From: Octopus vulgaris
Lineage: Eukaryota
Assembly: GCA_951406725.2 (NCBI GenBank)
Contig: OX597814.1
Coordinates: 172,236,001-172,300,000, forward strand
Length of the DNA stretch: 64,000 nt
Direction: 5' to 3'
Shown: positions 40,752-48,173 of the stretch, piece after piece
How positions within the stretch are numbered: the first letter of the stretch is position 1
How the letters are laid out: each line of letters opens with the position of its first letter
The notes under the pieces: model-generated
Seen by the model: only the letters and a program-made list of their open reading frames with translations
The model's database searches: none
Told to the model about the DNA's origin: nothing
Program-made: the position numbers and the translations under genes

Positions 40752-41505
40752 TTCTTTTTACTCTTTTAATTGTTTCAGTCATTTGACTGTGACCATGCAG
40801 AAGTACCATCTTTAGTTGAACAAATCGATCCAAGGACTTATTCTTTGTAAGCCTAGTACTGATTCTATCGATCTCTTTGGCCGAACCGCTATGTTATGGA
40901 GACGTAAACACACCAGCATCGGTTGCCAAGCGATGTTGGGGGGACAAACATATACACACACACACATATATATATATATACATAGAGACGACGGGCTTCT
41001 TTCAGTTTCCGTCTAGCAAATTCAATCGCAAGGCTTTGGTCGCTCAGAATTTTGACCGGTGTGCTAACGATTCTGCCAGCTCACCGCTTTGATAATGATA
41101 ATAATAATAATCCTTTCTACTGGAAGAATATGGCCACGAACGTGGCGGAGGAATTAAGTCGATTACATCGACCCAAGTGAGTGACTGGTATTTATTTAAT
41201 CGACCCCGAAAGAATGAAAGGCAAAGTCGACCTCGGCGGAATTTGAACTTAGAACGTAGCGGCAGACGAAATACCTATTTCTTTACTACCCACAAGGGGC
41301 TAAACACAGAGAGGACAAACAAGGACAGACAATGGTTTAAGTCGATTATATCGACCACAGTGCGTAACTGGTACTTAATTTGCTTCCCAATCACATGGTT
41401 CCGGGTTCAGTCGCATCTTAGGCAAGTTTCTTCTACTATAACCTCAGACCAACCAAAAGCTTTGTGAGTGGATCTGGTAGACGGAAACTGAAAGAAGCCC
41501 TCATG
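40752..41505. mobile_element. Cluster of SINE A and SINE B fragments
   Basis: Matches the family A and B copies elsewhere in the window. Confidence 0.75.
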
Positions 41506-41517
41506 TATATATATATT

Positions 41518-42137
41518 TTCAATGTTAAATGGCAAGATCGTGTTCGAAATAGTGAGTTACTGGAGAGGTGTGAGATCACTGGTATTGAAACATTTTTGAT
41601 TAAGATACAAATGCGGTGGTCTGGTCATCTTGTAAGAATGGATGACTCAAGAGTTCCAAAGCAGCTCTTTTATGGGCAATTGACAAATTCTTCCCGTCCA
41701 ACAGGGCGTCCTCTTCTTCGTTACAAGGACAAACTAAAAGATAATCTGAAGCGTTGTGACATTGCTCTGAGCTCCTGGGAGAGTGCAGCAGGGGATCGCA
41801 GCAAATGGAGGAAAATGTGTTCTCTAAAGACTAGAGAATTTGAAAGTAACCGTCTTCGTCATAGGGACGCCCTTCGTGCAAATTTGAAAGCAATGTATCA
41901 TCAGCAAAATCCACCAAACAATGACTGTGTGTGTCACTGTGGGTTTAAAGCACGAAGCAAAGCTGGGTTAGCTGTCCACTCGAGAAGACATTTTGAACCA
42001 CCGAATACATGCAGGTGTATCATTTGCGAGAAAGTGTGCAAGACATCTGCTGGATTGAAGGTACACATGCGGTGTCACAAGGCTTAGGAATTGTTGAAGG
42101 TTTATTTACTGAACCCTCATTCATCGTCTTCGATGAT
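41518..42137 (+). mobile_element. RTE-clade LINE 3' fragment with two C2H2-like fingers
   Basis: WQDRVRNSELL, MRWSGHLVRMDDSRVPKQLFYG, RPTGRP..RYKD, C.CGF...H..H and CIICEKVC..H..H. Confidence 0.88.
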
Positions 42138-42774
42138 ATATATATACCATATATATATATATATACCCCACCTCTAACCCCACCCTCCACCTACCCACAA
42201 CCCCCACTCTACCCCAACCCCCAGCCGAATCCACACCCACCTGTGCTTTCCCCTTTGTCGCCTCCCCCACCTCCCCACAACATCACACCACACTACACTA
42301 CACCATACAACATTACACATCACGTCACAACACACCACCCACACACCCATCCCCACATCTCCACACCCACACATACATACACACACACGTCCAGACCACC
42401 AGCCCTCTTTCACACGCACATACATACTCTCTTATACACACACGCACCTTTGTATTGGGGGGCACCTTCGTACTGGAAGTCACTTGACCCTCTTATCTCC
42501 CCTACTGTCCCCCGCGTGTCTGACCACTGTCCGAAGTCAGGACGCCATGATAGATCGTTAGCTCCTACACGCATTTTTTTCTCTCCTTGTTTCTCTCCTT
42601 GTTTTTCTTTTTTGTATCTTTCTGTAGAAGAGCGTAGGCTCGAAACGTAAAATACTTTTTCTATTTCTATTCCTGAGCGCTATACTAATACATTTGTTTG
42701 TTTGTACTCCACCTCCCTTCGTCTTTTGTTTATTTTCGTAAACTTTCCCTTTATATATATATATATATATATAT

Positions 42775-43680
42775 ATTTATCAATATAGGGTAGCAAAAAA
42801 ATTCAAGAAGAATTCAAGAAAAATTTTCTGCAACCAGCGGTCAAGTGAGAAAATAGAAATAGTCACAGACTATATAATATATTCAACAAAGTATTAAGGA
42901 ATGACCCTAACAGGTCTTTCAACTCACTTGAAAAGAGCAGCCAAACTCAAACCGCAAAAATAGTAGTAATTCTGAAAGCTAAAGGAGAAATAAAAACAAT
43001 TTAATTTAATTTAATTAAGTTCGATTGCGTAAAAATTGTTGAAACCTTGCAGGGTACAAAGTTGAAAGGGATAAATGTTTTTATTTCTCCTTTAGCTTTC
43101 AGAATTACTACTATTTTTGCGGTTTGAGTTTGGCTGCTCTTTTCAAGTGAGTTGAAAGACCTGTTAGGGTCGTTCCTTAATACTTTGTTGAATATATTAT
43201 ATAGTCTGTGACTATTTCTATTTTCTCACTTGACCGCTGGTTGCAGAAAATTTTTCTTGAATTTTTCTTGAATTTTTTTGCTACCCTATATTGATAAATT
43301 AATAATTTTTGACTAATTCTGAAATTGTATCAGCAGTTTATATTTGCTGCTGAGTAGTTGGCGCGGTTACGTTGGATTTCGAAAAATTAGGATATATACA
43401 CTCGGGACTTCAGTGGTGTCGCCTCGTGGGTATATGTTCTCCTTTTCTTTTGGTGACTTTGCTGATGAAACAAGCTAATCGCAAACGGATTTAATTTAAT
43501 TTAATTAAGTTCGATTGCGTAAAAATTGTTGAAACCTTGCAGGGTACAAAGTTGAAAGGGATAAATGTTTTTATTTCTCCTTTAGCTTTCAGAATTACTA
43601 CTATTTTTGCGGTTTGAGTTTGGCTGCTCTTTTCAAGTGAGTTGAAAGACCTGTTAGGGTCATTCCTTAATACTTTGTTG
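42775..43680. mobile_element. Retrozyme/pLTR-like element: 490-nt unit, ~1.4 copies, plus inverted 5' arm, in (TA)n
   Basis: 42999-43190 repeats at 43489-43680, and 42775-42998 is the reverse complement of ~43077-43299. Confidence 0.8.
43456..43552 (+). ncRNA. Canonical type I hammerhead ribozyme spanning the repeat junction
   Basis: actttg CTGATGA aacaa...ttgtt GAAA cct-tgca-ggg TA caaagt. Confidence 0.85.
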
Positions 43681-44290
43681 TATATATATATATATGTATC
43701 AGTTTGTGTCTTTGTGTTTGCTCCCCACCCCACCGCTCGATAACCGCTGCTGGTGTGTACGCATCTCCGTAACATAGCGGTTCGGCAATTAAGAGCGATA
43801 GAATAAGTACCAGACTTAAACAAAAAAAAAAAGAAAGAAAGAAAAAAGAAAAAAGAAAATGTAAGTACTGGGAACGATTCATTTAACTAATGATTCAAGT
43901 CCAATGACTGAAACAGATAAAAGAATAGCTGACCTTGACACGGCTTTGAACTCAGAACATGAAAACCTGGAATTAAATATTGAAACGCATATTTCCAACA
44001 TGTTAAGGATTCCGCCAGCTTACCCACCCCGAATTAGTAATAGCAATTGGCGTCGGCAGCAGTGGTAGCGTCTCTATAAGTGAACTGTTGCTTTGAATGG
44101 AAGTGTTCTTTGGGTAATTTCTTTGTCGACCTTAGAAATGCCTTCGTTGACCTTTGGTATCTGCCTACACCCACTCCTACCACTGACATCACCACCACCA
44201 CCACCACCACCACCATCACCACCACCACAACTTCCAACATAGCTACCCATAATCCACCCCCTCACCGTTACCATAGACATAAAAGCTAGA

Positions 44291-44827: not shown

Positions 44828-45185
44828 GGAGGCGCCATGGCCCAATGGTTAGGGCAGCGGACTCGCGGTCGGAGGATCGCGGTTTCGATTCCCAGACCGG
44901 GCGTTATTGAGCGAAAACACCTAAAGGTCCACGAGGCTCCGACAGGGGTGGTGGCGACCCCTGTTGTACTCTTTCGCTCCAACTTTCTCTCACTCTTTCT
45001 TCCTGTTTCTTGTCCCCGACTTCCTACGCAACCGCTGAGCTTGGATGCGTATTCATTCATCCGTCGATGCTCTCGGCGTCGGGGGTTGACCTGCTTTCTC
45101 TTCTGCTGCGGATCTTACGAATAGCAAAGGACCACGTTTCGGACTTCTACCATCTTGCGAGCTCTGGGACGAAGACCGTTCGCTC
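44828..45185 (+). mobile_element. SINE family C
   Basis: tRNA-like head GGAGGCGCCATGGCCCAATGG...GGTTTCGATTCCC, shared with the copy at 2440. Confidence 0.7.
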
Positions 45186-46502: not shown

Positions 46503-46689
<187 letters not shown>

Positions 46690-46871
46690 ATTAGGGCTTA
46701 GTAAAATAAAATTACTTTGCCACATACTGAACTTAGTAGAAATAGCAGCCCAAAAAATTTTTTTTTAGCATTTCTACTACTTAAAGAAAATTTCTCTCAG
46801 ATAATGTTTACTCCAGACAGCTCACGAAGGTTTGGGGTAAATACAGAAAAATATCACAAGTACATAGATCG

Positions 46872-46934
46872 TTTGAGTACGTCAACGTTTCAAGATTAGC
46901 CAAATAAAATCAGCATTTCTTTCGTCAGCTCAAA
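46872..46934 (-). ncRNA. Canonical type I hammerhead ribozyme (left arm)
   Basis: Reverse complement of 47692-47754. Confidence 0.85.
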
Positions 46935-47691
46935 ATTTCTTAATTTGGATTTGGAAACACTAAAAGAAGGAACTTTACCTATCAGCGAACTTGTCGTTTC
47001 AGATGAACCACTCCAACTAAACAGTGTCAACAAATTCAAAATGCGCAGGCGTAAAATTCTGCACTCCCCATTCCACCCACGTGGTCTATCTAGCAAACAT
47101 TATATTTTAACCGCGAGAACCGAGGCAGTATGACCGAGAGAAATGAATTATAATATCAACAATTGAGGGTAAAATTAATTAATTAATCAATTTCACCAAG
47201 TGTTCAGTATGTAAAAGGACCATTTAAGGCGAATTCAAAATATTACATTATATAATTAGGGCTAAGTAAAATAAAATTACTTTGCCACATACTGAACTTA
47301 GTAGAAATAGCAGCCAAAAAAAATTTTTCTTAGCATTTCTACTACTTAAAGAAAATTTCTCTCAGATAAGCCCTAATTATATAATTTTGAATTCGCCTTA
47401 AATTATCCTTTTACATACTGAACACTTGGTGAAATTGATTAATTAATTAATTTTACCCTCAATTGTTGATATTATAATTAATTTCTCTCGGTCATACTGC
47501 CTCGGTTCTCGCGGTTAAAATATAATGTTTGCTAGATAGACCACGTGGGTGGAATGGGGAGTGCAGAATTTTACGCCTGCGCATTTTGAATTTGTTGACA
47601 CTGTTTAGTTGGAGTGGTTCATCTGAAACGACAAGTTCGCTGATAGGTAAAGTTCCTTCTTTTTAGTGTTTCCAAATCCAAATTAAGAAAT

Positions 47692-47754
47692 TTTGAGCTG
47701 ACGAAAGAAATGCTGATTTTATTTGGCTAATCTTGAAACGTTGACGTACTCAAA
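47692..47754 (+). ncRNA. Canonical type I hammerhead ribozyme (right arm)
   Basis: tttgag CTGACGA aaga...tctt GAAA cgt-tg-acg TA ctcaaa. Confidence 0.87.
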
Positions 47755-48034
47755 CGATCTATGTACTTGTGATATTTTTCTGTATTTACCCCCAAACCTT
47801 CGTGAGCTGTCTGGAGTAAACATTATTTGAGAGAAATTTTCTTTAAGTAGTAGAAATGCTAAGAAAAAATTTTTTTTGGCTGCTATTTCTACTAAGTTCA
47901 GTATGTGGCAAAGTAATTTTATTTTACTAAGCCCTAATTATATAATGTAATATTTTGAATTCGCCTTAAATGGTCCTTTTACATACTGAACACTTGGTGA
48001 AATTGATTAATTAATTAATTTTACCCTCAATTGT

Positions 48035-48173
<139 letters not shown>

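What the first reader, a model, noticed from the sequence alone, without database searches (positions are those of the whole stretch)
42775..43680. Hammerhead formed only across the unit junction of a 490-nt repeat
Seen: the first unit starts inside loop II, so it has only the GAAA/stem III half. The full canonical HHR appears only where unit 1 runs into unit 2. An inverted partial arm precedes it. Inference: the insertion is a circular permutation of the monomer, as expected from a circular or multimeric template.
Basis: partly seen in the sequence, partly recalled or inferred. Interest (0 to 1): 0.7.

Follow-up and report, generated by a model that had tools for sequence, protein, structure and literature searches.

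The report
Truncated retrozyme copy with Penelope-type ends
This is one of several hundred genomic copies of a known kind of small non-coding jumping element with a predicted self-cutting RNA motif; its odd start is ordinary truncation, but the copies' ends suggest that a Penelope-type enzyme likely copied many of them from RNA that had already cut itself.

Summary
The anatomy is real: (TA)n, a 224-nt inverted arm, 1.4 units of a 490-nt repeat, (TA)n, with one complete type I hammerhead (predicted cut after A43546). "Only across the junction" is a framing effect: unit 1 begins at a random truncation point. The family (639 exact matches to one end motif) is not circularly permuted at both ends. 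Its 5' ends scatter, but its 3' ends are fixed at two sites about 105 nt apart, and 81 of 84 two-armed insertions use one of each, like the Penelope "tail". No examined locus has a coding body feeding into an arm, so it is a non-autonomous retrozyme, not an ordinary pLTR. 5' ends are about three-fold enriched in the 30 nt after the predicted cut (22 vs 6.8 expected; replicated 18 vs 6.0), which points to self-cleaved linear templates beside read-through ones. A circle is neither shown nor excluded. One insertion joins an arm to a young Penelope-like element, a candidate helper. The scan already reported this insertion geometry on other DNA of this genome, including ~490-nt families. Known class; modest interest.

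The parts
42752..42774 (.). (TA)n target microsatellite, left part
42775..42998 (-). Inverted arm, u78-u301: outer (3') end at site S2; inner (5') end 19 nt downstream of the predicted hammerhead cut
   Evidence: 2 differences in 224 to 43076-43299
42999..43488 (+). Direct arm, unit 1 (490 nt, 34% GC, non-coding); its start is a 5' truncation point inside hammerhead loop II
43036..43063 (+). Orphan 3' half of the upstream hammerhead (stem II 3' strand, GAAA, stem III, site after A43056, stem I 3' strand)
43455..43553 (+). Complete type I hammerhead with long helix II and self-complementary 10-nt stem III region; predicted cut after A43546
   Evidence: cleavage untested
43489..43680 (+). Direct arm, partial unit 2 (u1-u192), ending at site S1
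43275..43301 (+). Site S2 (u~297-303) as an internal copy: the second fixed 3' end of the family, about 105 nt beyond S1
43681..43695 (.). (TA)n target microsatellite, right part

Best explanation
The locus is a 5'-truncated, two-armed insertion of a non-coding 490-nt hammerhead repeat family, likely pasted into a (TA)n tract by a Penelope-like reverse transcriptase-endonuclease acting in trans, with each cut DNA end likely priming at its own fixed internal site of the RNA. Steps: (1) multi-unit donor loci are transcribed (inferred). (2) The hammerhead cuts some junctions, probably as a dimer through its palindromic stem III (inferred), giving RNAs that start at u59 beside uncleaved or re-ligated ones. 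(3) The helper cuts both strands of (TA)n; one end primes at S1 (u~192-197), the other at S2 (u~297-303). The fixed ends and the one-of-each pairing are shown; the priming is inferred. (4) Each cDNA stops at random or runs out near the cleaved 5' end, and the two cDNAs are joined back to back (junctions shown, joining inferred). Here the S1 arm ran 682 nt through one cut site and stopped in loop II; the S2 arm ran 224 nt and stopped 19 nt short of the cut site.
For: Family: 122 matches in 40 scored candidates; 156 exact matches to the hammerhead 3' half; 639 to the S2 motif, control 0. Fixed 3' ends: 134 of 148 arms in 92 loci chosen without an end motif stop at S1 or S2; 196 of 214 such outer ends have (TA)4 within 60 nt. 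Pairing: 61 of 63 and 20 of 21 new two-armed loci with both ends canonical pair S1 with S2; 18 and 3 loci with a non-canonical end were set aside. Both arms come from one subfamily in 77 of 81 loci and differ by a median 1.7% vs 6.5% to other loci (38 loci). 5' ends in u59-88: 22 vs 6.8 expected among 99 arms; 18 vs 6.0 among 55 arms of 40 newly fetched loci, with 0 vs 3.7 in u29-58; 4 arms start at u59-60. No coding body upstream of an arm in 154 + 40 loci; longest ORF in the unit 14 aa. L043 joins an S1 arm tail-out to a 5'-truncated member of a young Penelope-like family (RT + GIY-YIG, at least 40 copies about 99% identical, (TA)n-targeted, same two-ended geometry). Partial tandems, inverted 5' copies, a one-sided tail, (TA)n bias and two RT start sites are described for PLEs (PMC8557442 passages; PMC11167929 main text).
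Against: No biochemical or raw-read evidence of cleavage, transcription or priming. The active fold is 9-13.5 kcal/mol above the minimum and Rfam does not call it; 8 of 9 Xenopus retrozyme dimers showed no cleavage in vitro. In the first sample u29-58 was not depleted (5 vs 5.3), and the 30-nt bin was chosen after I had seen that list; only the replication was fixed beforehand. The stops could be RT stalling at hammerhead stem I. The candidate helper shares no sequence with the unit, the chimera is a single event (plus its duplicate on another contig), and a second chimera (L194) involves a different PLE family. The tail is about 105 nt, not 30-40. For the anole PLE, hammerhead cleavage was dispensable in vitro. 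About 190 loci were read; most of the 639 S2 matches were not.
Confidence: 0.8

Rival explanations
1. The template is mainly a covalently closed 490-nt circle copied round and round; the stops after u58 are stalls at the ribozyme or ligation junction, or come from re-cleaved circles.
For: 42 passages through the cut site in the first sample and 16 in the replication, seamless in the aligned copies. Units within an arm lack family polymorphisms: 13 in 10,989 bp after removing 22 end-of-arm sites, vs 1,860 in 109,049 bp between loci. Each of four subfamilies (73-100% alike) has arms of about two units or more. Circular folds z = -3.7 to -5.7 against 25 shuffles each. Circles are shown for coral, mussel and axolotl retrozymes (PMC7229834).
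Against: Homogeneous young multimer transcripts predict the same. The two longest arrays (L032, L008) have inner units that share private variants, a sign of local duplication rather than rolling. In the replication the excess of 5' ends begins right at the cut site (earliest u62, none in u29-58), as expected of an RNA end.
Confidence: 0.4
2. The copies are only 5'-truncated pLTR ends of an autonomous Penelope-like element that was not sampled (ordinary pLTR debris).
For: All insertion features are those of PLEs; most PLE insertions are heavily 5'-truncated (PMC8557442); median arm 177 nt; only part of the family was read and flanks were limited (median 1.85 kb on the shorter side).
Against: Upstream of a unit lies another unit, up to 4.4 in a row, never an ORF. 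9 of 154 loci and 0 of 40 new loci had a PLE protein hit in the flank, none feeding into an arm's 5' end on the same strand.
Confidence: 0.1
3. The inverted arm is a fold-back copy of the first cDNA (snap-back), or the structure arose by later DNA rearrangement, not by priming from both DNA ends.
For: At this locus the inverted arm is contained in the direct arm. In 17 of 64 simple two-armed loci the two 5' ends lie within 20 nt (8.5 by shuffling, p = 0.003).
Against: In loci such as L038, L070, L071, L074 and L085 neither arm is contained in the other, and the strict S1+S2 pairing is not expected from rearrangement.
Confidence: 0.1

Closest known systems
Metazoan non-LTR retrozymes (Cervera and de la Pena 2020, PMC7229834: passages and Discussion read; Li, Clavereau and Pollet 2026, bioRxiv 10.64898/2026.07.22.740005: parts 1-3 of 5 read)
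   Same: Non-coding tandem unit with a type I hammerhead, low GC, dispersed monomers to multimers, proposed PLE mobilisation and PLE origin.
   Different: Unit of 490 nt (above the 150-450 of the 2020 paper, inside the 51-972 of the 2026 preprint); long helix II; this locus has one complete ribozyme, so it is not 'active' by the 2026 definition. The parts I read do not describe two fixed 3' ends, tail-out arms or 5' ends at the cut site.
EN+ Penelope-like elements and their non-autonomous derivatives (Craig et al. 2021, PMC8557442: passages read)
   Same: 5' truncation, partial tandems, inverted 5'-truncated copy, tail on one side only, (TA)n preference; non-autonomous head-to-tail forms are known in Chlamys.
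   Different: No ORF; tail about 105 nt instead of 30-40; no sequence shared with the candidate helper.
PAc/Poseidon of Anolis in vitro (Frangieh et al. 2024, PMC11167929: parts 1-2 of 4, the main text, read)
   Same: Both DNA strands cut and extended; RT starts at two internal RNA sites that define the tail; AT-rich targets.
   Different: There, no strand preference for the start site, no homology to the target, and no need for or in vivo sign of hammerhead cleavage. Here, one site per DNA end, AU-rich sites resembling the target, and an excess of 5' ends after the cut site.
Dimeric type I hammerheads with palindromic helix III (Cervera and de la Pena 2014, PMC4209133: passages read)
   Same: Weak, self-complementary helix III/loop 3, kept by two-sided changes across subfamilies.
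   Different: The palindrome is 10 nt and helix II carries a 46-63-nt extension.

Membership tests
Non-LTR retrozyme | Type I hammerhead in each unit of a short tandem repeat | tested here: met
   110 complete cores in 154 loci, stems paired in 102-110 of 110 per position; Rfam gives no hit
Non-LTR retrozyme | Non-coding, GC below 45%, unit of a few hundred nt | tested here: met
   474-490 nt, 34-36% GC, longest ORF 14 aa in the window's unit
Non-LTR retrozyme | At least two consecutive complete hammerheads ('active' copy, Li 2026) | tested here: not met
   This locus has one; 11 of 154 loci have two or more in one arm. Met by the family, not by this copy
Non-LTR retrozyme | RNA self-cleavage | tested here: inconclusive
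   Indirect only: excess of 5' ends after the cut site; active fold above the minimum energy
Non-LTR retrozyme | Expressed as monomeric linear and circular RNA | not testable with these tools
   Only assembled contigs of runs guessed to be RNA were served
Autonomous EN+ Penelope-like element | RT + GIY-YIG ORF upstream of the 3' pLTR | tested here: not met
   0 of 154 + 40 loci; flanks limited, family partly sampled
Penelope-type insertion | 5' truncation, partial tandem, inverted 5' copy | tested here: met
Penelope-type insertion | Two 3' ends, tail on one side only | tested here: met
   81 of 84 two-armed loci pair S1 with S2; length about 105 nt rather than 30-40
Penelope-type insertion | Microsatellite or AT-rich target | tested here: met
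   196 of 214 canonical ends next to (TA)n
Penelope-type insertion | Mobilised by a PLE protein | tested here: inconclusive
   One tail-out chimera with a young PLE (L043) and one junction with another PLE (L194); no shared sequence

The most novel reading that the evidence does not exclude
The insertions are a genomic record of the retrozyme cycle in an animal: the hammerhead cuts in the germ line, a Penelope-like enzyme uses the cleaved RNA as template, and each DNA end is bound to its own start site regardless of which RNA it copies (in the chimera L043 the repeat supplies the inner-site end and the helper the outer-site end). The young 4,271-bp Neptune/Nematis-type element would be the helper, which gives a defined RNA-protein-target trio to reconstitute.
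Probability: 0.45. Interest if true: 0.55.

Novelty: new member of a known kind. Interest (0 to 1): 0.32.

Why it matters
How animal retrozymes are copied, and whether the hammerhead of Penelope-type elements acts in transposition, are open: mobilisation by PLEs is proposed, and the one in vitro PLE did not need cleavage. This family offers countable predictions (start sites S1 and S2, one per DNA end; RNA 5' ends at u59) and a candidate helper.

Tried and rejected
Rfam scan of the window: no match at gathering score. Exact pattern from the window's hammerhead 5' half: 1 match, because this copy has a private base. Sequencing runs: no RNA holder listed on record; 11 holders and small shares only guessed to be RNA. 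Laying contigs of 4 guessed-RNA runs and 4 unlabelled runs showed family variants but cannot show ends, strand, circles or an empty site. Collision of the S2 cDNA with the S1 primer, as in L1 twin priming: no excess of stops in u209-238 (8 vs 9.5), rejected. Loop II as a special start: no excess in u1-28 (6 vs 4.5; 3 vs 3.5), rejected. Sequence link between the unit and the young PLE: best hit a 19-nt AT-rich match. The constrained folds used coordinates off by two and were discarded; one search is the corrected run. A permuted (open stem II) fold from the two halves in unit 1 is only 3 kcal/mol worse than the junction fold, so cleavage at A43056 is not excluded, but the inverted arm would pair with u78-u301 in a read-through transcript. 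Two of the fetched S2 loci (L189, L214) gave no alignment passing the filters and were left out. Earlier findings by sequence and near this place: none. Literature searches for 'retrozyme + cephalopod' and 'retrozyme + truncated + cleavage site + target-primed' listed one paper each, neither on this point; supplements were not read (closed for the bioRxiv preprint) and could hold family lists that include this one.

Full report
Observation. The window at 42775-43680 reads (TA)n, an inverted arm (42775-42998), a direct arm (42999-43680) and (TA)n. I number the 490-nt unit from u1 = 42999. The direct arm is u1-u490 plus u1-u192, with one difference between the overlapping parts. The inverted arm is u78-u301 with two differences, joined bluntly to u1. 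A complete type I hammerhead lies at 43455-43553, with the predicted cut after A43546 (u58); its 3' half recurs at 43036-43063. Rfam does not call it. Free folding gives stems I and II only (z = -3.6), and the full fold lies 9-13.5 kcal/mol above the minimum. Across 110 complete family cores each tested stem position is paired in 102-110, with two-sided changes in stems I-III, and the 10-nt stem III region stays self-complementary. That is the pattern of dimer-type hammerheads (PMC4209133, passages).

The family. The genome (2.8 Gb, 227 contigs) holds 156 exact matches to the hammerhead 3' half and 639 to a motif at u~277-297, with 0 for the control pattern. I read 154 distinct loci and 40 more (one repeats an earlier locus, two look like segmental duplicates). 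Four subfamilies are 73-100% identical to the window's unit, 474-490 nt long and 34-36% GC; the window's unit has no ORF over 14 aa. Only 11 of 154 loci have two or more complete ribozymes in one arm; this locus has one.

The 3' ends are fixed. In 92 loci chosen by whole-unit or hammerhead match, 134 of 148 arms end at S1 (u~192-197) or S2 (u~297-303); both sites are AU-rich and run into the target with a few bases of overlap, and 196 of 214 canonical ends abut (TA)n. Two-armed insertions are tail-out, and 61 of 63 with both ends canonical pair S1 with S2 (binomial p = 2e-16; 18 loci with a non-canonical end set aside); in new loci 20 of 21 do (3 set aside). The arms of one insertion share a subfamily in 77 of 81 cases and differ by a median 1.7% against 6.5% to other loci. 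In several loci neither arm contains the other, so fold-back copying does not explain them. This matches the PLE signature of partial tandems, an inverted 5'-truncated copy, a tail on one side and (TA)n bias (PMC8557442, passages), and the two internal RT start sites with extension of both strands shown for the anole PLE (PMC11167929, main text). The tail here is about 105 nt rather than 30-40.

The 5' ends scatter round the unit, with one exception. In loci chosen only by the S2 motif (72 loci, 99 arms, median 177 nt), 22 arms stop in u59-88, the 30 nt after the predicted cut, against 6.8 expected from a constant stop rate (Poisson p = 3e-6); none of the other 13 bins is enriched, including AT-rich ones. 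I chose that bin after seeing the list, so I repeated the count with the bin fixed on 40 newly fetched loci: 18 against 6.0 (p = 6e-5), none in u29-58 against 3.7, earliest stop u62. In the first sample u29-58 was not depleted (5 vs 5.3). Four arms start at u59-60. Positions come from local alignments and are good to a few bases. One third to one half of the arms that reach u88 stop there; the rest pass the site (42 and 16 passages), without junction indels in the aligned copies. The window's inverted arm belongs to the stopping class; the start of its direct arm in loop II is background (6 vs 4.5 expected). Inference: a good share of templates were ribozyme-cleaved linear RNAs, the rest uncleaved multimers or circles. 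Stalling at stem I is the alternative.

Circle or multimer. Units within an arm almost lack family polymorphisms (13 in 10,989 bp after removing 22 end-of-arm sites, against 1,860 in 109,049 bp between loci), and circular folds are stable (z = -3.7 to -5.7). That fits a circle, but equally a transcript of a young homogeneous array. The two longest arrays (L032, L008) show inner units sharing private variants, which points to local duplication. Public data gave contigs only. The circle stays open at about 0.4.

Coding body and helper. With a full-length PLE protein as query, 9 of 154 loci and 0 of 40 new loci had a hit in the flank, none feeding into an arm's 5' end on the same strand; flanks were limited and most of the family is unread. 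Two hits are direct joins. In L043 an S1-ended arm is joined tail-out to a PLE truncated within the RT. That PLE belongs to a young family (40 of 40 scored matches 99-100% identical) with a 4,271-bp unit, ORFs of 454 and 775 aa, GIY-YIG above and RVT_1 just below the Pfam cut-off, a CX4CxxC motif before the GIY-YIG as in Neptune/Nematis (PMC8557442; clade not tested by tree), (TA)n targets and a tail-out copy with two different ends (L234). It shares no sequence with the unit. In L194 an S2 end runs straight into a different PLE. So a PLE helper is likely, and its identity is a lead.

Comparison and verdict. It works like a Penelope-type insertion and files under metazoan non-LTR retrozymes (PMC7229834, passages and Discussion; Li et al. 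2026 preprint, parts 1-3 of 5), with cleavage and circular RNA untested. My reading was written before the first look-up of earlier notes; those notes report the same geometry for ~360- and ~490-nt families elsewhere in this genome and call the host a cephalopod, which I did not test. What this locus adds is the replicated excess of 5' ends at the cut site and a candidate helper. I did not find that excess in the papers read or in searches. New member of a known kind; interest 0.32.

Noticed in passing
window 46679-48040: A second, unrelated hammerhead family with a ~566-nt unit and the same tail-out geometry inside (TA)n; complete type I cores on both strands (47698 +, 46928 -); 40 of 40 scored candidates about 97-100% identical, with arrays. 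It shares a 21-nt AT-rich stretch near its ends with the S2 site of the 490-nt family.
   Followed up: partly
window 42550-42750: Very high-copy repeat just left of the insertion (far greater contig depth than the 490-nt family) with a degenerate minimal hammerhead-like core near 42624-42650; resemblance to a Penelope pLTR end is recalled, not tested.
   Followed up: no
window 41500-42085: 3' end of a LINE ORF with C2H2-like zinc-finger motifs (translation); RTE-like by recall, not tested.
   Followed up: no
L231:4726-8321: The young PLE has a separate 454-aa upstream ORF without Pfam match overlapping the 775-aa RT-EN ORF, the same in several copies; canonical EN+ PLEs are described with a single ORF, so an intron or frameshift is possible.
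   Followed up: partly
L043:4790-5110: Another small inverted-repeat element with a hammerhead-like core inserted in the (TA)n tract right after the PLE arm; the same start is seen beside L058 and L081.
   Followed up: no
L200, L213 and other subfamily D loci: The most divergent subfamily carries a CCGAUGA core variant in place of CUGAUGA, with stems kept.
   Followed up: partly
window 44830-44910: Short stretch resembling a tRNA-derived SINE head (recalled); ARAGORN finds no tRNA in the window.
   Followed up: partly
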